A stretch of 64,000 nucleotides of DNA from UHGV virus genome UHGV-0178594. One strand, given 5' to 3'. Position 1 is the stretch's first letter. Each line of letters begins with the position of its first letter. The notes under the pieces were generated by a model that had not been told where the DNA came from, searched no databases, and was given only the letters and a program-made list of their open reading frames with translations. Source of the stretch: a virus. Shown one piece after another: positions 9,402-38,706 of the stretch. The position numbers and the translations under genes were made by a program.

Positions 9402-10226
9402 TTATTGATAATGGTTAGCCATCCATTCAGATCTAATTGATGGGATAAACTCTCTATTGAGAAATGGGGCGTACAGCGTGGTAGTCACGTCTGCACCCTC
9501 CTTAGCGTTTTTGCAGCGTTGTGGCGGTAGGATCAGGCGGCTTGTGCCTCGTTCAATAGCCATTTTTAAGCCGTGGCGAAGGTCTTTCTGCATGAGCTGA
9601 ATGCGAGCTACCAGAGGGGTAAACTCGGTTTCCAGAGCCATGTTTTCAATGATATCGAATCGTCTGTTTGCAGCTTGTGTGAAGTCTTCTGGATCGTCGT
9701 TCAGAGATGTACACAAGGCCAACTCAGCTATGCGGAGACGAGCAACCTCAGCACTGTACTCTGGAGTTTTCATATCAGGCAAAGTGGCGCGCATACGCTC
9801 AAGCAATTCAGCTCCTTTCCCTGTTAGTGGTTTAAGCGTCCACTCGGTTGGTACTCCGTTTATAGGGACCATAGTTTTAATAAACGGCGGGACAGTCAGG
9901 ATTTCTACCGTTTCGGCAAGGTCTGAAAGGTTAATATCTGCGTGATGAACGTTTCCACAGTGACCACACTCGTATGAGTAAGTCATGACGGCATCAGGCC
10001 TGGAATTAACAAAGATCCACCAAAGCGCGGTTCTGCGATCCTGAACTGTCCAGTTTGAGCTGTCGTTAATTTCGCCGTCTTGCATAGCATTGAGGTATTC
10101 TGTTGTGGTTGCCTCGTCTTCTGCCGGATTGATGTCTGAATATTTCAGGGCATCTTTCACAGTAGGTGCATGAAACTGAATTTCTATTTCAGGCTGTGAA
10201 GGCAATGGGAATTTGGGAATGTTCAA
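9402..10226 (-). CDS. Hypothetical protein with CxxC..H motif (YECGHCGNVHH)
   Basis: 274-aa ORF; no family recognised. Confidence 0.3.
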   Translation of the reverse strand: MNIPKFPLPSQPEIEIQFHAPTVKDALKYSDINPAEDEATTTEYLNAMQDGEINDSSNWTVQDRRTALWWIFVNSRPDAVMTYSYECGHCGNVHHADINLSDLAETVEILTVPPFIKTMVPINGVPTEWTLKPLTGKGAELLERMRATLPDMKTPEYSAEVARLRIAELALCTSLNDDPEDFTQAANRRFDIIENMALETEFTPLVARIQLMQKDLRHGLKMAIERGTSRLILPPQRCKNAKEGADVTTTLYAPFLNREFIPSIRSEWMANHYQ

Positions 10227-10330
10227 GGATTCCTCCGAAAGCTAGGTTCAGTTAGTTTTTCAGAGGATAGGGAGTGTGTGATTTGTGGGAGTATTGAATA
10301 AGGATCTTTGTCGATCGAACAGCAACTATT

Positions 10331-10590
10331 GAGGGTGATTTTTACACCTTAAGTGACGCAATTCACATATCCACAGAGTATTTTTATAAACCTTTTTCTC
10401 TTTTTAATCCTTTTTAGATCCTTTTTAGGCATCGCGGAGGCCAGGGGTGGCGGGGCTTGTAGAGGACCAAGGTGTAAGATTTGCCCTCAATTAAGCTATT
10501 GAGGTGTAAGATTTGCCCTCAGCAGGTGTAAGATTTGCCCTCAAAAGGTGTAGTAATTGCCCTCAAAGTGATGTAAAAATTGCCCTCACC
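10331..10590. promoter_or_regulatory. Plasmid origin region: DnaA-box-like ATATCCACA (10367-10375), AT-rich tract, five ~22-bp-spaced iterons GGTGTAAGATTTGCCCTCA (10471, 10503, 10525, 10547, 10568)
   Basis: Repeats read directly; the last iteron overlaps the repA start region. Confidence 0.6.
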
Positions 10591-11368
10591 ATTTGAAGGA
10601 TCACACAGGGTTATGAACAGAGCGGAATTAACGGCAAAAGCCGTCAGTCTGATTGAATCAGCGACACCAATTAGCCGTAGCTTGGCGCAGGCCAATGAGA
10701 TCACAGAGGCGGCTTATCACCTGACACGCGACCAAAAGCGACTGTTGTTTATTGTGGTGGGAAGACTTCGCTATGCTTCTAAGGATGGCGTTCTTGGTTC
10801 AGGTGCCTGTGAGTTGACGGTCAACGAATATGCAGAGATGTATAATTTGCCCTCTGCTGAAGCCAGCAAGGATATTCGTAAAGCTATCTCCGGACTTAGT
10901 GAGAAGAAAGTCACGATATATAACCCTGATGAATCAACCGAATCAGAAGACAGTTATGAGTCTTATCCCTGGATGATTAAGGAGGCTTACTCACCACGCC
11001 GGGGGACTTACATTATTCATCTGAATCCATATCTCATGCCGTTTTTTACTCTGCTTGATAAGAGGTTCACGAGGCTGAATTTTACTGAAGTGTCTCGCCT
11101 GACAAACCCTTATTCTATGCGGCTTTATGAGTCCTTATGCCAGTATAGAAAGGATGATGGGAGCGGCTTCGCTATACTTGGCGTTGAATGGATGCGGGAG
11201 CGTTATGGTCTTCCCAAAAGCTATCAACGGTACGCCGAATTTAAGAGAAGCTTTCTGGCAAAAGCTGTAGCTGAAATCGAAAAAAACACAAAAATGAAAA
11301 TAGTTTTCTCAGAGGTTACAGAAGGTGGCAGAGTTACAAAAATAAAATTCACCTATCAGCAGTCTTAA
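10580..11368 (+). CDS. repA: Iteron-binding plasmid replication initiator
   Basis: 262-aa ORF flanked upstream and downstream by iterons of the same family; true start may be the internal ATG at 10613. Confidence 0.65.
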   Translation: MPSPFEGSHRVMNRAELTAKAVSLIESATPISRSLAQANEITEAAYHLTRDQKRLLFIVVGRLRYASKDGVLGSGACELTVNEYAEMYNLPSAEASKDIRKAISGLSEKKVTIYNPDESTESEDSYESYPWMIKEAYSPRRGTYIIHLNPYLMPFFTLLDKRFTRLNFTEVSRLTNPYSMRLYESLCQYRKDDGSGFAILGVEWMRERYGLPKSYQRYAEFKRSFLAKAVAEIEKNTKMKIVFSEVTEGGRVTKIKFTYQQS

Positions 11369-11660
11369 GGGCAATTTCTACACCTCTCTGTAGGTGTAGG
11401 ATTTGCCCTTAAAGATGGGAGATTGAGGGCAATTCTTACATCATTAGTTAGTTGGTTGGATCTTTAACGGCTAACATTATTTGTAATTTATTGATTAATA
11501 AGGAATGTGTAAAAATCACCCTCAGATGGCATCGTATGCTATAGCTATTTTTATCGCACTACTGTTGAATGTTTTATGGTTGTAACGCGTTGATTTTGTT
11601 GTGATGTGTAAAAAATGCCATCATTGACGTAAACAGCAGGTGTAGATATTGCCCTCAAGT
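11368..11660. repeat. Downstream iteron cluster (copy-control/incompatibility-like), both orientations
   Basis: AGGGCAATTTCTACACCT (11368), AGGTGTAGGATTTGCCCTT (11392), GAGGGCAATTCTTACATCA (11425), AGGTGTAGATATTGCCCTCA (11639). Confidence 0.5.
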
Positions 11661-11699
11661 TTGCCCCTTCCCCACCTTCTCGCACTTTAATACTGCATT

Positions 11700-12437
11700 T
11701 CAAAACTTGATCACGTTGCTGGCGGCGCTTTTAAGTGCGCTTGTTGCTAAACCAGCAGCTCCATTGACTAATGCGGACAGGCCGGAACCGGCAGATGTGT
11801 ATCGCTGGAACGTGATCGGATAGGACAAGAATTCGGACACCTGATCACGTGAGCGGCTGATCTCTCCTATCTGAGTCGGAAATACACGCATTTCCTCTTC
11901 CAGCTCTTTCCCGCCTTCCTGTGTAACGCGGTATAGCCTGATATTCATGAGATAATCTGGCGGCAGGTTTAGCGTACCATCGCTATTGGTTACACGAGCG
12001 CGGCGCTCTTTGAACCAATTCATTATTTTGCCGTCTTCTGTGTCTCTGACCGTCATTGTTACCGGCCCGGCGGTTACGTGCGTTGGCTTATTGAACTCGA
12101 CGCTACCAATGATTTTGCTTTCTGTTTCAATATTCCCGCTACTGTAAGTGATGTCCTTAACGAACATATCAAAGCCGCTTAATCCGTCTACGTCTACCGT
12201 CCACTGCCAGCCCTGGGCATAGCGGATACGCATAGCCGTAGCAACTACGTTCTTTCCGTAAGCGATGTCATTGCCGTAGCTCCCACTAACGCCACTGCCA
12301 GACACCGCTCTATCCAGAATGTCGCTGATAAGGTTGCTGGTGAACGATTTCGCGCTAAACGATACCGCACTGGATAGCGTTTGCGTTGCAGCACTAAAAA
12401 TACTCACGTAGCCCTCCGTGTTAAAAAATGGTGGCAC
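11700..12437 (-). CDS. Virion morphogenesis protein (unassigned)
   Basis: 245-aa ORF in a tightly packed minus-strand structural operon. Confidence 0.3.
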   Translation of the reverse strand: MPPFFNTEGYVSIFSAATQTLSSAVSFSAKSFTSNLISDILDRAVSGSGVSGSYGNDIAYGKNVVATAMRIRYAQGWQWTVDVDGLSGFDMFVKDITYSSGNIETESKIIGSVEFNKPTHVTAGPVTMTVRDTEDGKIMNWFKERRARVTNSDGTLNLPPDYLMNIRLYRVTQEGGKELEEEMRVFPTQIGEISRSRDQVSEFLSYPITFQRYTSAGSGLSALVNGAAGLATSALKSAASNVIKF

Positions 12438-21820: not shown

Positions 21821-22780
21821 ATGATGCGCATTTTTATCGACGATGGTTCTACCAATATCAAAATGCTGTGGGAACAGGACGGGGAAACTCGAACCCATAT
21901 CTGTCCGAACAGTTTTAAACGTGGATGGTCCGCCACATTTGGCGCAGGAAAGCCGTTTAACTACATCATTGATGACGAAAAATATTCATATGACTTGATC
22001 TCGCCGGATGTGCTGCCGACGAATAACGTTGAATGGCAATACAGCCCGCTTAATGTGCTTGCTGTTCATCATGCCCTGCTTACAAGTGGCATTGAGCCTC
22101 AAGAAGTGGAAATAGTTGTCACGTTGCCACTGGCAGAGTTTTATGACGACGACGCACAATACAACATGAAAAATATTGAGCGGAAAAAGGCCAGCCTGAT
22201 GCGACCAGTCACCCTTAACAAAGGTCAGGTTTTTACTATCAAAAAAGTGACTGTGCGCCCGGAGTCAATACCCGCAGGGATCGGTCTGTGCGACAGCCTT
22301 GTGCCAGCGCATTCTGTGCTTATTGTTGATCTTGGTGGGACTACTCTGGATGTGTCGATGGTCGCCGGGCAAATGACCGCCGTTTCTCGCGTATTTGGCG
22401 ATTCTAATCTCGGCGTTTCGCTGGTAACTAAAGAGGTCAGACAGGCACTTGCAAAAGCGAATACCGAAACCTCTAATTATAATGTCGATCAATTAATCAT
22501 TAATCGTGATGATGAGGATTATTTGACCGACAATATTAACGATCCGTCTGCTATTGATGATGTTAAGAAAGCCATTTCGTCAAGCATAGAACGACTCCGT
22601 ACACGCGTACTGGATGTGATCAGTGATTTCAAAGGATACACGCATGTTATGGTCATTGGTGGCGGCGCGCCGCTTGTTGCTGATGCTATCCGTGAGCAGG
22701 TAAACATTCGTGACGATAGGTTTTTCGTTGCTGATGATCCACAACTTGCTCTTGTCTATGGTCTAAAATCTATCGGTTGA
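21821..22780 (+). CDS. parM: Actin-like plasmid segregation ATPase
   Basis: MMRIFIDDGSTNIKMLW.. with ..LAVHHALLTSG.., ..IVDLGGTTLD.., ..GYTHVMVIGGGA.. closely matching remembered R1 ParM/StbA; start taken at ATG 21821 after GGAG. Confidence 0.85.
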   Translation: MMRIFIDDGSTNIKMLWEQDGETRTHICPNSFKRGWSATFGAGKPFNYIIDDEKYSYDLISPDVLPTNNVEWQYSPLNVLAVHHALLTSGIEPQEVEIVVTLPLAEFYDDDAQYNMKNIERKKASLMRPVTLNKGQVFTIKKVTVRPESIPAGIGLCDSLVPAHSVLIVDLGGTTLDVSMVAGQMTAVSRVFGDSNLGVSLVTKEVRQALAKANTETSNYNVDQLIINRDDEDYLTDNINDPSAIDDVKKAISSSIERLRTRVLDVISDFKGYTHVMVIGGGAPLVADAIREQVNIRDDRFFVADDPQLALVYGLKSIG

Positions 22781-22790
22781 TGAGGTTGCC

Positions 22791-23156
22791 ATGTCTCAGG
22801 AACGTCGAAAAGTATTGTTTTATCTTCGTCCTGGTCTTAACGCCAGTGAGCAATATGCTGATGCAAAACTTGAGGGCCATCCATTAAGAGATCGCAATGA
22901 TATGGCGCGCACAGCGATGCTTGCAGGTATCGCTCTTGGCGAGGTTGATAGCAGATTACCTCCCATGTTGGCATCGCTTTTATCCGGTGATAATAGCCCT
23001 GAAGTGATCAGAAAAATGCTGGTTTCATTTCTTGAAATTTCGCCTGAAGTTCGGGAAAACCCTGAAGGAAACCCCTCAGCCTCAGCGGATGTTAAAAAAC
23101 CTGGCGTTTCGAAAAGCCGCTCTGCACAGAATTTGGCAAACTCACTCCCTGATTAA
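22791..23156 (+). CDS. parR: Centromere-binding adaptor
   Basis: 121-aa ORF directly after parM; N-terminal ..RKVLFYLRPGLN.. pattern like ParR. Confidence 0.6.
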   Translation: MSQERRKVLFYLRPGLNASEQYADAKLEGHPLRDRNDMARTAMLAGIALGEVDSRLPPMLASLLSGDNSPEVIRKMLVSFLEISPEVRENPEGNPSASADVKKPGVSKSRSAQNLANSLPD

Positions 23157-23441: not shown

Positions 23442-24083
23442 ATGATTATATTGGTAGTCAGCCAAAAAGGTGGCTGTGGAAAATCAACCACAAGCGTAAA
23501 CATCTGTGCGGAGCTTGCCCGCGAAAATAAGGATGTAGTGTTACTAGATGCAGACAAGCAAGGAACAGCTGCCCGCTGGGCAGCTGACCGTAACACGGCA
23601 GAGGTTTCTCCTGTAATTCATTGTGTCCAGAAGTTTGGTAATATTCGAGAAACACTTCTCGATCTGGATAAGCGTTATGAATTTGTAGTTGTTGATACAG
23701 CCGGGCGCGATAGCAAAGAGATGCGTACAGGCATAACCGCTGCAGATATTGTGTTGGTCCCATTTAGACCATCTCAACCAGATTTAGACACGCTGGCACA
23801 CTTTGTTGAAGTGTTTGAAGAGGCTTTGGACCTGATGCCTAATCCTAGCATTAAGGCGTTCGCAGTCTTAACAATGGCCCCATCCAATCCGGTTGTGAAT
23901 GAAACCAATGAGGCCAAAGAGTACCTGGCTGAATATCCGCAACTGAAGTTGCTGAAAACCATCATTCGTGATCGTAAGGTTTACCGCGATTGCATGGCTG
24001 AAGGGAAGGGCGTTGTTGAGATGGACAACGGGAAAGCTAAAGGTGAAATCCAGATGTTGGTTAAGGAGTTATTAAGTGATTAA
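23442..24083 (+). CDS. Small Walker-type (ParA/ParF/MinD-family) partition ATPase
   Basis: N-terminal deviant Walker A VSQKGGCGKSTTS, ..VVLLDADKQG.., ..VVVDTAG.. Confidence 0.8.
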   Translation: MIILVVSQKGGCGKSTTSVNICAELARENKDVVLLDADKQGTAARWAADRNTAEVSPVIHCVQKFGNIRETLLDLDKRYEFVVVDTAGRDSKEMRTGITAADIVLVPFRPSQPDLDTLAHFVEVFEEALDLMPNPSIKAFAVLTMAPSNPVVNETNEAKEYLAEYPQLKLLKTIIRDRKVYRDCMAEGKGVVEMDNGKAKGEIQMLVKELLSD

Positions 24084-24363
24084 GCCTCGTAAATCGGTAA
24101 AAGCCCCCGAAGTAAAAGACCCCGATCTTGAACGCCGAATTGAGGATTTTGCCAGTAAGGCTGATTTGGTGCCGGGTGAGCAACCAGAAGACAACAAAGT
24201 GCTCGATAAGGACGCCCCACGTGATTTTAAATCCATTCGTGTTGGCTTCAATGAATACGAGTACCAGGTACTTGATGCGTTAAGCAAAAAGCATAATCGC
24301 AGCAAATTGAATATGATCCGCCATGCTATCCTCATGCTTGCAGAGTCTGAGGATACAAAATGA
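24076..24363 (+). CDS. ParG-like small RHH partner protein
   Basis: 95-aa ORF overlapping the ParA stop; C-terminal ..SKLNMIRHAILMLAES.. ribbon-helix-helix-like. Confidence 0.45.
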   Translation: MIKPRKSVKAPEVKDPDLERRIEDFASKADLVPGEQPEDNKVLDKDAPRDFKSIRVGFNEYEYQVLDALSKKHNRSKLNMIRHAILMLAESEDTK

Positions 24364-24497: not shown

Positions 24498-26912
24498 TTA
24501 ATTGAGCGTGGCTATAATGTCGTTAGCTATCATTCGGGTTGATGCTTTACAGGATACAGAGCGACGGGATGGCATAGGATACACCTTGAAGCCATTGCCA
24601 ACGTAAAGTTCGCGAATGTTAGGCGCACCACTGTTTGTTATCACAATTTTCGCTCCGCGTCTGTGGGCATCCACCAGCAGTGACACCAGCCGTTGTTGAT
24701 CTTCAAACCTAAAGCTATGCCCTGAGTAATTTGTAAATCCGGTAGTGTCGGGCAATGGTTCATAGGGGGGATCGCAGAAAATCACATCATCATTCCCTGC
24801 AGCCTCAATTACACCAGCAAAATCGCCGGACACAAATTCCGAATACTTTGAAATATCGTCAGCCAGGAACGCCTCCATTTCCGCGAGAGGGAAGTGGGGG
24901 GATTTCTGCTTTCCATATCCGACGTTGAACTCTCCTTTACGGTTATAGCGAGTGACGCCATTAAAACAATGACGATTGAGATACAGGAACGCCGCTGCAT
25001 GGTGAAGGGAATCATAAGCACCATTGTTGAATGCATTGCGAACATTCAAAAATGCATCAGCAGAGTTGTAATCCTGAAAAAAACGATATGCCAGTGTGAT
25101 AAGAGAATGCCCTTCACGCTGCAATGTCTGATAGAAGTTAATCAGGTCACCGTTAATATCATTAAGCAGGTTGTGGCGAAAACCTGCATTCGTAAATACG
25201 GAACCGCCACCAACGAATGGTTCTATTAACCGCTTGCCGTGTGGCAGATGCTCAAGCACTGTAGGCAACCCTGAGAATTTACCGCCTACCCATTTGAATA
25301 TTGGGCGCTCATATTCATCCGGAGTCCGGAGTTTTCTTGTGTAGGTAATGGTATTTATTGTTTTTTGCTGTTTATCCGCCACGGTCGCAAGAATGCGACA
25401 CCCAATCCATTGCATAACAGGAACTGCCATGCTGTTGCCGATCGCTTTGTAACGCGGTCCGTCAGCAGCGAGCATCGCGGCCTCTTCTTCGCTTAAATCT
25501 GGATAGTGATTGCGAAGATATGCCAGTTCATCTGAATTAACTTTTTTACGCTTTTCCGTCGGGATCAACGTATGCCCATCAGGAAAACCTTGCAGCCTTT
25601 CACATTCGACAGGGGTAAGACGGCGGACAGCTACTTCTGCGTTTCTTACTTCATAGCAAACAGCTGTTGGATTTTTAGCCATTAGAGATGGTGAAGTATT
25701 CTTAGTTGCAGCATGTTGTGTACCGCTCATACGCTCAGGAAAAGCCAATGTAACAAGATGCTCATGGCTTTCTTGCTCACGTGCCCGCAATGTACCATGC
25801 CCTTCTGACCAAAAACCTGCTCCTGTGCTGCTAAAAACGGCAAGGTCAGTGGCATCTTTAAAATCTCTTGCCTTTACTGTCGATGCGGTTTCATCGTCAA
25901 TATATTCCCCAAATGCTGCCATCCTGAAAGCGTTTACGGCTTTCGTCGATTTCATACCGGGTGGCATGTCAGCGTGTAGGCATGGATTTAGGCTTTCGCC
26001 ACTGATTGCAGCGCCATTTGCAATAATGGCGGAAGCGATTTCCTTCTTTTTTCGGCTCGGCGCAATATTCCGGCGCACGCCTTCGAACTCAAAAAGTACC
26101 GTTGCGGGATCGAGGTCTGTTCGAGCACTTGCGACAACAAACACGCGTCGGCGTCGTTGCGCCACTCCGAAGTATTGGGCATCAAGGATTCTCCAGGCCA
26201 CTTTTCGCTGCGGTCCATAAATACAACCACACTGCGGCCACTTTGGAGCATGGCAACCGGTTTTGACATCCCACCGCCAGAACGAGTTACTTTTTCCTGA
26301 TTCAGGTCGATCACCTGGTTCGAATGGCGCATCTTCTCCAGCCAATCCGGCAAGGAAACATCCGAAGGCGTTATCTGCCGATGACAGGACTCCTGGGACA
26401 TTTTCCCAGACGATAACTGTCGGTTTGAGGAAGGACTCAGACCGTTTGTCGTCAATTGCATTTGCAAGCTCCACATACTTCAAAGTTAGCGCGCCGCGTT
26501 CATCATCAAGCCCACCACGTAAGCCCGCGATACTGAATGCCTGACAAGGGGTTCCTCCGACGAGGACATCCGGGGCTTCAATTTTTCCAGCCCGGACCTT
26601 CTTAGCAAGTTTTGTCATGTCGCCAAGGTTGGTAACATGAGGCCAGTGGTGCGCAAGAACGGCAGACGGAAAAGGCTCAATTTCAGCAAACCAAGCCGGA
26701 CGCATACCCAACGGTTCCCAGGCAATGCTTGCGGCTTCAATTCCACTGCAAACCGAACCATATCGAAGATTAATGCTTTGCTTCACCGCCAATGGCCTCC
26801 ACCAGCGAGCTAAACATCGCGGATAATTCGCTTGTGAACAGAATGAAGTCAGCATCAAATCGCTGGGCAACATCTTCACGGTCGATGTCATCGTTCTGGT
26901 CATAGAGATCAT
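24498..26912 (-). CDS. dmt: Bifunctional DNA methyltransferase: N-terminal C5-cytosine MTase fused to C-terminal Dam-like N6-adenine MTase
   Basis: C5 motifs ..YGSVCSGIEAA.., ..GGTPCQAFSIAG.., ..VIVWENVPG..; Dam motifs ..FKWVGGKF.., ..FLYLNRHCFNG.., ..FCDPPY..; 5' end uncertain (143-bp overlap with rdgC as listed). Confidence 0.8.
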   Translation of the reverse strand: MISMTRTMTSTVKMLPSDLMLTSFCSQANYPRCLARWWRPLAVKQSINLRYGSVCSGIEAASIAWEPLGMRPAWFAEIEPFPSAVLAHHWPHVTNLGDMTKLAKKVRAGKIEAPDVLVGGTPCQAFSIAGLRGGLDDERGALTLKYVELANAIDDKRSESFLKPTVIVWENVPGVLSSADNAFGCFLAGLAGEDAPFEPGDRPESGKSNSFWRWDVKTGCHAPKWPQCGCIYGPQRKVAWRILDAQYFGVAQRRRRVFVVASARTDLDPATVLFEFEGVRRNIAPSRKKKEIASAIIANGAAISGESLNPCLHADMPPGMKSTKAVNAFRMAAFGEYIDDETASTVKARDFKDATDLAVFSSTGAGFWSEGHGTLRAREQESHEHLVTLAFPERMSGTQHAATKNTSPSLMAKNPTAVCYEVRNAEVAVRRLTPVECERLQGFPDGHTLIPTEKRKKVNSDELAYLRNHYPDLSEEEAAMLAADGPRYKAIGNSMAVPVMQWIGCRILATVADKQQKTINTITYTRKLRTPDEYERPIFKWVGGKFSGLPTVLEHLPHGKRLIEPFVGGGSVFTNAGFRHNLLNDINGDLINFYQTLQREGHSLITLAYRFFQDYNSADAFLNVRNAFNNGAYDSLHHAAAFLYLNRHCFNGVTRYNRKGEFNVGYGKQKSPHFPLAEMEAFLADDISKYSEFVSGDFAGVIEAAGNDDVIFCDPPYEPLPDTTGFTNYSGHSFRFEDQQRLVSLLVDAHRRGAKIVITNSGAPNIRELYVGNGFKVYPMPSRRSVSCKASTRMIANDIIATLN

Positions 26913-34591: not shown

Positions 34592-34787
34592 AACAGTTCC
34601 TCACAGTCATAACCTGGGGGGAACTGTATGCAGGGTGTGAAATGCGAGAAACAGACAGGCCACCAGTTCAGGGGGATGTGGTTCATAAATCCCCTCACTG
34701 GTGACAAGTGACTTTCATTAATCTTTATGCGGGGGCCAGCTTCATTGTTTGCTGGCTGTAGATTAAAAATTAAATAGTGTGAATGAC

Positions 34788-38399: not shown

Positions 38400-38640
38400 A
38401 GCCTCCTTTGACTAAGTTAAGGAGCTACCGCGTGAGGTTCCAATCTCAATGGCGGTAGCACTGACTGGGTTGGAACTACCGGCGTCAAAGGGAACCGGCC
38501 TGCCTTTCGGCAGCCCAGCCAGCACTACCATTGATCTCTGAGCTAAACGCTAAGTATGGCTGTGCGATGGCATGACACAAAAAAAGACGCGTTCGGCGTC
38601 TGTGTCGCCTTTGACATTATCCGGGGTTCCAATCCCGGCA
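38400..38640 (-). ncRNA. Structured leader / candidate c4-like antisense regulatory RNA region
   Basis: Hairpins GCTACCGC..GCGGTAGC and CTGCCtttcGGCAG; GGTTCCAATC occurs twice (38427, 38619) with its complement TTGGAAC at 38466. Confidence 0.25.
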
Positions 38641-38706
38641 CCCGTTTTTCTAAGGTGCCGTAGAAATATACCCCACGATAATGCCAGGGCGCAACTGTGT
38701 GTTTTC

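What the first reader, a model, noticed from the sequence alone, without database searches (positions are those of the whole stretch)
10331..11660. Iteron replicon embedded between tail/baseplate and sheath/head gene blocks
repA is bracketed by five upstream iterons with a DnaA-box-like element and by a downstream cluster of iterons in both orientations, a P1-style ori plus copy-control layout but with a different iteron sequence. The replicon sits between two virion gene blocks, not next to the partition genes 10 kb away.
Basis: seen in the sequence. Interest (0 to 1): 0.4.

Follow-up and report, generated by a model that had tools for sequence, protein, structure and literature searches.

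The report
F-type iteron replicon of D6-like phage-plasmid
This 1.4-kb stretch is the plasmid-maintenance replication module of a phage D6-type prophage that lives as a plasmid; it is a relative of the F-plasmid RepE/ori2 replicon, so it is real but an ordinary member of a well-understood kind.

Summary
Thirteen copies of a 17-19 nt iteron (GGTGTAAGATTTGCCCTCA) lie in 10330-11657, against one comparable match in the other 62 kb. Five are direct repeats in front of repA (10613-11368). One is inverted, left of a DnaA-box-like site. One is inside repA. Six are downstream in both orientations.

The window is a phage D6-type, P1-related phage-plasmid. It is 100% identical to several E. coli plasmids, and its RepA is 98% identical to D6 gp42. 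The replicon fills the tub-pmgB junction, which is only 14 bp in P1. The ParM partition genes lie about 10 kb away.

The "P1-style" reading holds only for layout. RepA has no significant similarity to P1 RepA and is 50% identical to F RepE. The iteron shares F's TTGCCCTCA half. The DnaA-box, T-rich unwinding element and GC-rich spacer align with F ori2.

It differs from F in four ways:
- It has no dimer-operator inverted repeat.
- Its downstream iterons are in mixed orientation.
- It has an extra inverted iteron upstream.
- It has an intragenic iteron that is kept at synonymous sites in distant relatives.

The most likely mechanism is RepA/DnaA-dependent theta replication with copy control by iteron titration and handcuffing. 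It is a new member of a known kind, of low to moderate interest.

The parts
10330..10346 (-). Upstream inverted iteron (TGTAAAAATCACCCTCA) on the far side of the DnaA box and DUE. It has the same sequence variant as the downstream copy at 11508-11524.
   Evidence: (I4, 95% complementary over 21 nt). It is at the identical relative position (-283) in D6 and four other plasmids.
10359..10375 (+). DnaA-box region. ATATCCACA (10367-10375) matches 8/9 positions. It is preceded by a degenerate box, CAATTCACA (6/9 by my reading), at the position of F's tandem boxes TTATCCAC-TTATCCACG.
   Evidence: Homologous boxes are present in L009, L011, L013 and L015. Alone it is not above chance.
10376..10428 (+). 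AT-rich DNA unwinding element, 75-80% A+T, with five T5 runs on the top strand (10381, 10393, 10401, 10411, 10422). It shares TATTTTTATAA and TTTTTAGATC with F ori2.
   Evidence: RepE binds a thymidine pentamer of the T-rich DUE strand (PMC10602881).
10429..10468 (.). GC-rich spacer (25-35% A+T) between the DUE and the iterons. A similar spacer is seen in F and all relatives.
10471..10588 (+). Origin array of five direct 19-nt iterons (10471, 10503, 10525, 10547, 10570). The last one, GATGTAAAAATTGCCCTCA, holds the only plausible -10 element (TGTAAAAAT) for repA.
   Evidence: The array is identical in D6. The promoter assignment is inference; the scan found no consensus sigma-70 promoter on the + strand.
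10613..11368 (+). repA, encoding a 251-aa Rep_3 initiator with WH1 and WH2 domains, of the RepE lineage.
   Evidence: Pfam. 50% identity to F RepE. PDB 1REP/2Z9O/7UXY at E about 1e-73. 247/251 identical to D6 gp42. NCBIfam RepE equivalog scores 281 bits, below the 342-bit cut-off.
10839..10855 (+). Intragenic iteron (TGTATAATTTGCCCTCT) over codons 76-81 (M-Y-N-L-P-S), just upstream of the codons for the WH1 recognition helix.
   Evidence: 1 mismatch. It is kept at synonymous sites in relatives with 57-73% RepA identity: 11 of 12 core codons are identical, against a background of 0.40. It is absent in F and in L009.
11366..11657 (.). Downstream control array (analogue of incC/incA) of six iterons: 11366-11382(-, overlaps the stop codon), 11395-11411(+), 11424-11440(-), 11508-11524(+), 11607-11623(+, degenerate) and 11641-11657(+).
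   Evidence: Between the window and D6, iteron cores are 92% identical and spacers 52% (Fisher p = 1e-13).
9402..10226 (-). Left flank: pmgB-like virion morphogenesis gene, divergent from repA.
   Evidence: D6 annotation. Weak T4_baseplate Pfam hit.
11700..12437 (-). Right flank: tail-tube (tub-like) gene, convergent with repA.
   Evidence: D6 annotation. tblastn to P1 Tub at 48% identity.

Best explanation
This is the lysogenic (plasmid-mode) replicon of a phage D6-type, P1-related phage-plasmid. It is a theta-type, iteron-controlled replicon of the F RepE (RepFIA) lineage.

Proposed mechanism:
1. RepA monomers bind the five direct iterons at 10471-10588.
2. Host DnaA binds the box at 10367-10375.
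3. Together they open the adjacent T-rich DUE (10376-10428), whose top strand RepA also contacts.
4. DnaB is loaded and replication starts.
5. The six downstream iterons, probably with the upstream inverted and intragenic copies, titrate RepA and pair with origin iterons (handcuffing or looping). This holds copy number low and determines incompatibility.
6. repA is probably autorepressed because its promoter must lie inside the iteron array. Only 24 nt separate iteron 5 from the ATG, and there is no F-type dimer operator.

Shown here: the homology, the anatomy, and the purifying selection on the iterons.
Inferred from F and P1 biology: binding, melting, handcuffing and autorepression.
For: Initiator:
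- RepA has Rep3_N and Rep3_C domains.
- It is 50% identical to F RepE (E 2e-86) and matches solved RepE structures at E about 1e-73.
- The RepE residues shown to be essential for DUE ssDNA binding (N22, F146, Y172) are conserved as N28, F152 and Y178 (PMC10602881).

Iteron recognition:
- The WH1 recognition helix SAEASKDIR is identical to F's, and the TTGCCCTCA half of the iteron is also conserved.
- The WH2 helix differs (RRR205-207 becomes KRS), and so does the iteron half that WH2 contacts (TGTGAC becomes TGTAAG) (PMC4980987).

Origin: the origin core aligns with F ori2 across DnaA box, TATTTTTATAA, TTTTTAGATC and the GC-rich spacer.

Iterons are far above chance. They sit at identical positions in D6 and four other plasmids. 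They are 92% conserved against 52% for the spacers (p = 1e-13).

Relatives: four more distant relatives (57-78% RepA identity) keep the plan of DnaA box, T-rich DUE and 5-6 iterons at about 22-bp spacing.

Distribution:
- The module is the only replicon PLSDB types in these plasmids (rep_cluster_1704).
- It occurs in 94 of 5426 complete E. coli genomes, always on 80-129-kb plasmids, never on a chromosome, and on one record per genome.
Against: - No experiment on this replicon was found. D6's own annotation says "putative" and "similar to P1 gene repA?".
- No consensus sigma-70 promoter was found for repA.
- The single DnaA box is imperfect and not significant by itself.
- The F-type operator is missing, so the autoregulatory step is inferred from geometry only.
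- The 27 kb of the plasmid outside the window was not inspected gene by gene for a second replicon.
Confidence: 0.85

Rival explanations
1. It is a P1-type (IncY) oriR-repA-incA replicon with diverged iterons.
For: - The order is the same: origin iterons, then rep, then control iterons.
- The control iterons are in both orientations, as in P1 incA.
- The first control iteron overlaps the rep stop codon, as in P1.
- The promoter is necessarily inside the iteron array, as annotated for P1 PrepA.
- The host element is P1-related.
Against: - There is no significant similarity between the two RepA proteins (E 0.056).
- The window has zero P1-type iterons.
- The DUE has one GATC, against five Dam sites in P1.
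- The replicon is not adjacent to par and sits at a different genome position.
- Strong homology points to F RepE/ori2 instead.
Confidence: 0.03
2. It is a true IncFIA (F RepE) replicon: functionally interchangeable and incompatible with F.
For: 50% identity to RepE, a shared iteron 3' half, and an alignable origin core.
Against: - The NCBIfam RepE equivalog score is 281 bits, below the 342-bit cut-off.
- The WH2-contacted iteron half and the WH2 helix both differ.
- The operator inverted repeat is absent.
- MOB-suite types the replicon rep_cluster_1704, not IncFIA.
- The identical plasmid NZ_CP104667 co-resides with an IncFIA/FIB/FIC plasmid in one strain, and a D6-type one does so in strain AR_0119. 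These F plasmids are multi-replicon, which can mask incompatibility.
Confidence: 0.05
3. The iteron/rep module is a decaying relic or serves lytic replication, and plasmid maintenance is driven by another replicon.
For: - The position inside a virion-gene block is odd.
- No recognisable promoter was found.
- Part of the plasmid lies outside the window.
Against: - The ORF is intact and 98% identical across about 100 plasmids.
- Iterons are under strong selective conservation relative to spacers.
- It is the only replicon type PLSDB assigns to these plasmids.
- The layout is typical of low-copy control rather than lytic replication.
- The annotation of the window shows no other plasmid-type rep gene.
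Confidence: 0.05

Closest known systems
F plasmid ori2(oriS)-repE-incC (RepFIA mini-F replicon)
   Same: - Homologous initiator, 50% identical, with WH1 and WH2 domains.
- Homologous origin core: DnaA box(es), T-rich DUE with TATTTTTATAA and TTTTTAGATC, GC-rich spacer, then direct 19-bp iterons at about 22-bp spacing.
- Shared iteron half TTGCCCTCA and an identical WH1 recognition helix.
- A control iteron array starting at the rep stop codon.
- Conserved ssDNA-binding residues.
   Different: - Five origin iterons rather than four.
- The iteron 5' half is TGTAAG, not TGTGAC, and the WH2 helix is changed.
- No inverted-repeat operator for dimer autorepression; only 24 nt lie between the last iteron and the ATG.
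- Downstream iterons are in mixed orientation, not all reversed.
- An extra inverted iteron lies left of the DnaA box, and there is a conserved intragenic iteron.
- One good DnaA box rather than two.
- It is not next to a sopABC-type partition locus.
- It scores below NCBI's RepE equivalog cut-off.
Phage P1 plasmid replicon oriR-repA-incA (IncY)
   Same: - The same functional layout, in a related phage-plasmid.
- DnaA box, DUE and five origin iterons that contain the rep promoter, then repA, then a control array in both orientations starting at the stop codon.
   Different: - No detectable sequence similarity between the initiators.
- An unrelated iteron sequence.
- P1's DUE has five GATC repeats.
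- P1's replicon is next to parAB-parS after gene 23. Here the replicon fills the tub-pmgB junction, which is 14 bp in P1.
Phage D6 gp42 region (NC_050154 45.5-47.0 kb; MOB-suite rep_cluster_1704)
   Same: - The same module at the same place, between the pmgB-like and tub genes.
- RepA is 247/251 identical.
- All iterons are at the same relative positions.
   Different: - The sequence beyond 11446 is diverged: spacers are about 50% identical.
- D6 has an extra segment of about 48 bp carrying a pair of P1-type iteron-like motifs, which the window lacks.
- D6 lacks a recognisable copy of the degenerate iteron at 11607 at the 2-mismatch threshold.

Membership tests
Rep_3 (PF01051/PF21205) iteron initiators | WH1 and WH2 winged-helix domains | tested here: met
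   Rep3_N E 2.2e-29 and Rep3_C E 2.7e-15, both above the gathering scores.
Rep_3 (PF01051/PF21205) iteron initiators | Tandem direct repeats (iterons) at about two helical turns, next to the rep gene, with an AT-rich DUE and DnaA box | tested here: met
   Five 19-mers at 22-23 nt spacing (one gap of 32). The DUE is 75-80% A+T. The DnaA box matches 8/9.
F RepE / IncFIA replicon | Initiator is a RepE equivalog | tested here: not met
   NCBIfam NF010305 scores 281.4 bits, below the 342-bit cut-off. Identity is 50%. It is homologous but a separate subfamily.
F RepE / IncFIA replicon | Iteron TGTGACAAATTGCCCTCAG recognised by RepE | tested here: inconclusive
   The 3' half TTGCCCTCA is conserved. 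The 5' half, which WH2 contacts, differs (TGTAAG against TGTGAC), along with the WH2 helix. Cross-binding cannot be tested with these tools.
F RepE / IncFIA replicon | Inverted-repeat operator between the iterons and repE, for autorepression by dimers | tested here: not met
   F has AGTGTGACAA/TTGTCACACT. The window, D6 and four relatives have no inverted repeat in the equivalent region.
F RepE / IncFIA replicon | Origin core of DnaA boxes, AT-rich DUE and iterons, with an incC iteron array after repE | tested here: met
   Alignment A1. Six downstream iterons, although in mixed orientation.
F RepE / IncFIA replicon | Incompatibility with F (IncFIA) | not testable with these tools
   Indirect only. 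The identical plasmid coexists with an IncFIA/FIB/FIC plasmid in strain 2021CK-00607, and a D6-type one does so in AR_0119. Multi-replicon F plasmids can mask incompatibility.
P1 oriR-repA-incA (IncY) | P1-type RepA protein | tested here: not met
   BLASTP E 0.056 over 44 residues.
P1 oriR-repA-incA (IncY) | Iteron GATGTGTGCTGGAGGGAAA | tested here: not met
   No match with up to 3 mismatches in 64 kb.
P1 oriR-repA-incA (IncY) | Layout: origin iterons holding the rep promoter, then rep, then control iterons in both orientations | tested here: met
   This is layout only; the promoter position is inferred.
D6-type phage-plasmid replicon (rep_cluster_1704) | RepA about 98% identical to D6 gp42, located between pmgB-like and tub genes of a P1-related virion module | tested here: met

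The most novel reading that the evidence does not exclude
D6-type and related replicons form a RepE-lineage subclade that has dropped F's dimer/operator autoregulation. Control is moved onto iterons alone. That includes a conserved iteron inside repA (codons 76-81), which could act as a roadblock or handcuffing partner, and an inverted iteron beyond the DUE.

In D6-type phages the module sits inside what is a single late operon in P1, convergent with tub. Late lytic transcription could then run antisense through the control array, repA and the origin, and switch off plasmid-mode replication on induction.
Probability: 0.2. Interest if true: 0.45.

Novelty: new member of a known kind. Interest (0 to 1): 0.22.

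Why it matters
It identifies the maintenance replicon of the D6 (P1g2) group of phage-plasmids, which occur in about 1.7% of complete E. coli genomes. It shows that this replicon is an F-RepE relative rather than a P1-type one. That matters for three reasons:
- Replicon typing and incompatibility prediction for these elements.
- Building D6-based vectors.
- Understanding how phage-plasmids swap plasmid modules: the same RepE-like module sits at different places in other large P1-like contigs.

The missing operator and the conserved intragenic iteron offer a natural comparison for how RepE-type initiators are regulated. None of this overturns current understanding.

Tried and rejected
- **sigma-70 promoter for repA:** the consensus scan found none on the + strand. 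Hand inspection gives only an extended -10-like TGTAAAAAT in iteron 5, so the promoter is left unassigned.
- **P1 late-promoter consensus:** AARTKACT-N5-TANNAT, derived from four annotated P1 late promoters, was searched to find a new late promoter for pmgB-sit. It gave only one weak hit, at 34706, and none near the replicon.
- **Intrinsic terminators between tub and repA:** none on the - strand in 11369-11699, and the overall count is not above shuffles.
- **F-type operator:** absent. A candidate half-site, GGATCACA (10598-10605), was considered. It was rejected because it matches only 4 of 8 positions of the inverted iteron half and the spacing is wrong.
- **RNA hairpin or terminator role for the head-to-head iteron pair at 11365-11412:** rejected. 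There is no T-run, and the arm differences between the window, D6 and L005 are not compensatory.
- **p0111-type replicon of P1-like phages:** rejected. tblastn against phages finds only D6, and no P1-like phage is among the hits.
- **D6 genome paper (Gilcrease & Casjens 2018, PMC5800970):** it could not be read. Whether it already describes the iterons is therefore unknown to me.
- **My own error:** a first motif scan of relatives returned nothing because I wrote the wrong spacer length. It was corrected.
- **Rfam:** nothing in the replicon region.

Full report
**1. What is in the sequence**

Reading 9800-12300 and the repeat search show a 19-nt unit, GGTGTAAGATTTGCCCTCA.
- With up to 3 mismatches it occurs 7 times in the 64-kb window, all between 10471 and 11442. 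Shuffles give 0.02.
- A degenerate 17-mer (TGTANNWWTTGCCCTCA, up to 2 mismatches) finds 13 sites between 10330 and 11657 and a single one elsewhere.

The arrangement, left to right:
- One inverted copy at 10330-10346.
- A DnaA-box-like ATATCCACA at 10367-10375.
- A 75-80% A+T stretch with five T5 runs on the top strand, at 10376-10428.
- A GC-rich spacer at 10429-10468.
- Five direct iterons at 10471-10588, with spacing of 32, 22, 22 and 23.
- After 24 nt, repA at 10613-11368.
- One iteron inside repA at 10839-10855.
- Six iterons downstream at 11366(-), 11395(+), 11424(-), 11508(+), 11607(+) and 11641(+). The first overlaps the stop codon.

The DnaA box alone is no more frequent than chance. 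Its meaning comes from position and conservation (section 3).

**2. What element this is**

- The 1.45-kb region is 100% identical to several E. coli plasmids of about 90 kb. It is 90.7% identical to phage D6 over 10256-11446.
- D6's annotation places the same gene (gp42, [quoted passage not shown]) between a pmgB-like gene and the tail-tube gene tub. The identical plasmid NZ_CP104667 shows the same order, with parM about 10 kb away.
- In P1 the genes pmgC-tub-pmgB-sit follow one late promoter, and tub and pmgB are 14 bp apart. P1's own oriR-repA-incA lies beside parAB after gene 23. In the D6 lineage, the 1.47-kb replicon module therefore occupies the tub-pmgB junction. repA is convergent with tub and divergent from pmgB.
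- The module is found in 94 of 5426 complete E. coli genomes. It is always on plasmids, never on chromosomes, and on one record per genome. It is the only replicon PLSDB types on these plasmids (rep_cluster_1704).
- Among 50,697 phage records only D6 carries it.

**3. What it is related to**

RepA has Rep3_N and Rep3_C domains.
- It is 50% identical to F RepE (E 2e-86) and hits the solved RepE structures at E about 1e-73.
- Against P1 RepA there is no significant similarity (E 0.056), and no P1-type iteron exists in the window.

I fetched an IncFIA ori2-repE-incC region and aligned the origins.
- The DnaA-box position, TATTTTTATAA, TTTTTAGATC and the GC-rich spacer line up.
- The F iteron TGTGACAAATTGCCCTCAG shares its TTGCCCTCA half with the window's iteron.

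Mapping RepE residues gives a consistent picture.
- The WH1 recognition helix SAEASKDIR is identical.
- The WH2 helix is changed: RRR205-207, needed for dsDNA binding (PMC10602881), becomes KRS.
- WH2 contacts GTG/GtCA of TGTGAC (PMC4980987), which is exactly the half that has changed to TGTAAG. This fits a diverged binding specificity.
- The residues shown essential for binding the T-rich DUE strand (N22, F146, Y172) are conserved, and the DUE keeps T5 runs on the same strand.
- NCBI's RepE equivalog model scores below its cut-off (281 against 342 bits). This is a sister subfamily, not RepE itself.

**4. Evidence that the repeats are functional**

- D6 and four further plasmids have every iteron at the same relative position.
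- Downstream of 11446 the window and D6 lineages have diverged. Across the downstream region, iteron cores are 92% identical against 52% for spacers (Fisher p = 1e-13).
- More distant relatives were found by protein search and fetched. Their RepA identities are 78%, 72%, 64% and 57%. They come from large P1-like or other contigs and a Nissabacter plasmid.
- All of them keep the plan of DnaA box(es), T-rich DUE, GC-rich spacer and 5-6 iterons at 22-bp spacing, with iterons of the form TGTA-N4-TTGCCCTCA.
- None of them lies between pmgB and tub, so the module moves between elements.

**5. Differences from F**

- F has a perfect 10-nt inverted-repeat operator between its iterons and repE. The window, D6 and the four relatives have no inverted repeat there, and iteron 5 ends 24 nt before the ATG. 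The promoter must therefore lie within the iteron array, as annotated for P1 PrepA. No consensus promoter was detected. The best candidate is an extended -10-like TGTAAAAAT in iteron 5, which is inference.
- The downstream iterons are in mixed orientation, as in P1 incA. In F incC they are all reversed.
- There is an inverted iteron on the far side of the DnaA box, conserved in D6.
- The intragenic iteron covers codons M-Y-N-L-P-S.
  - In relatives at 57-73% identity, 11 of 12 core codons (TAT-AAT-TTG-CCC) are identical. Elsewhere only about 40% of codons for conserved residues are identical. The one change, to CTG, matches an iteron variant of that replicon.
  - Treating the lineages as independent, I estimate the chance of this at about 3e-4. 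They are not fully independent.
  - F and the 78% relative lack the site.
  - This suggests selection at the DNA level, so the site is probably a working RepA-binding site. What it does there is unknown.

**6. Mechanism**

By homology with F (PMC13028717; PMC10602881), the proposed steps are as follows.
- RepA monomers on the five iterons, together with DnaA at its box, open the T-rich DUE.
- RepA holds the T-rich strand, and DnaB is loaded.
- The downstream array, and probably the two extra copies, titrate RepA and pair with origin iterons to cap copy number and set incompatibility.
- Occupancy of the origin iterons represses repA.

The homology, anatomy and selection are shown here. The biochemical steps are inferred.

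One strain carries the identical plasmid together with an IncFIA/FIB/FIC plasmid, and AR_0119 carries a D6-type one with a multi-replicon F plasmid. This is mild evidence that the replicon is not IncFIA. Extra F replicons could mask incompatibility.

**7. Verdict**

The finding is real and correctly located.
- It is the plasmid replicon of a D6-type phage-plasmid. The gene is already annotated in D6.
- It belongs to the well-known RepE/Rep_3 iteron class.
- "P1-style" describes the layout only; the ancestry is F-like.
- The modest points of novelty are the missing operator, the conserved intragenic iteron, and the position inside a late virion operon.

I could not read the D6 genome paper, so some of this may already be described there.

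Noticed in passing
L002 (phage D6) 7444-7483; also L004, L005, L006. Absent from the window (about 11660-11700) and from L007.: D6 and its closest relatives carry a segment of about 48 bp between the last RepE-type iteron and the tub stop. It holds an inverted pair of P1-RepA-type iteron-like 17-mers (GTGGGTGCTGACGGGAA / ATGTGTGCTGGAGGGTT). The window lineage lacks it. It could be a relic of, or a decoy for, an IncY replicon.
   Followed up: partly
L009/L010 3660-5270 (87-kb P1-like metagenome contig; RepA 78% identical): At least 8 P1-type iteron-like motifs are interleaved with RepE-type iterons in 179-bp repeats downstream of rep, giving a mixed two-specificity iteron array. The rep sits among ddrB/HNH/HigB genes, not between pmgB and tub.
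   Followed up: partly
L015 4745-5830 (JGI contig; RepA 64% identical): At least 25 reverse-orientation iterons spread over about 1.1 kb downstream of rep. This is an unusually large control array for a RepE-like replicon.
   Followed up: no
window 21824-23156 and 23442-24363: Two partition cassettes lie side by side. One is ParM (StbA_N/ParM) with a Plasmid_stab_B (ParR-like) protein. It is followed by a small ParA/MinD-type ATPase (213 aa) with an overlapping 95-aa ORF that has no Pfam hit.
   Followed up: partly
window 24498-26912 (-): An 804-aa protein fuses a C5-cytosine methylase domain with a D12-class N6-adenine (Dam-like) methyltransferase domain.
   Followed up: no
window 38448-38535 (-) and 38580-38658 (-): Rfam matches above gathering score to the C4 antisense RNA (77 bits) and to isrK (61 bits). 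They lie next to Icd-like and ash-family genes, in a P1 immI-type immunity region.
   Followed up: no
window 10227-11699 compared with P1 (L008 19495-19510): repA is convergent with tub, and no - strand terminator-like site was found in 11369-11699. Late transcription from tub would therefore run antisense through the control iterons, repA and the origin towards pmgB-sit, unless an unrecognised terminator or a new late promoter exists. No match to the P1 late-promoter consensus was found here.
   Followed up: partly
NZ_CP104666 (with NZ_CP104667) and NZ_CP021536 (with NZ_CP021537): Strains carrying this replicon also carry large conjugative plasmids typed IncFIA/FIB/FIC(/FII). The RepE-like D6-type replicon and F-type RepFIA therefore coexist in at least two sequenced strains.
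   Followed up: partly
L006 (Salmonella Blockley plasmid NZ_CP100711) 88-1296: In this 78-kb D6-type plasmid an IS91-family transposase replaces the pmgB-like gene immediately upstream of the origin. The element is probably a defective phage that is still maintained by the replicon.
   Followed up: no
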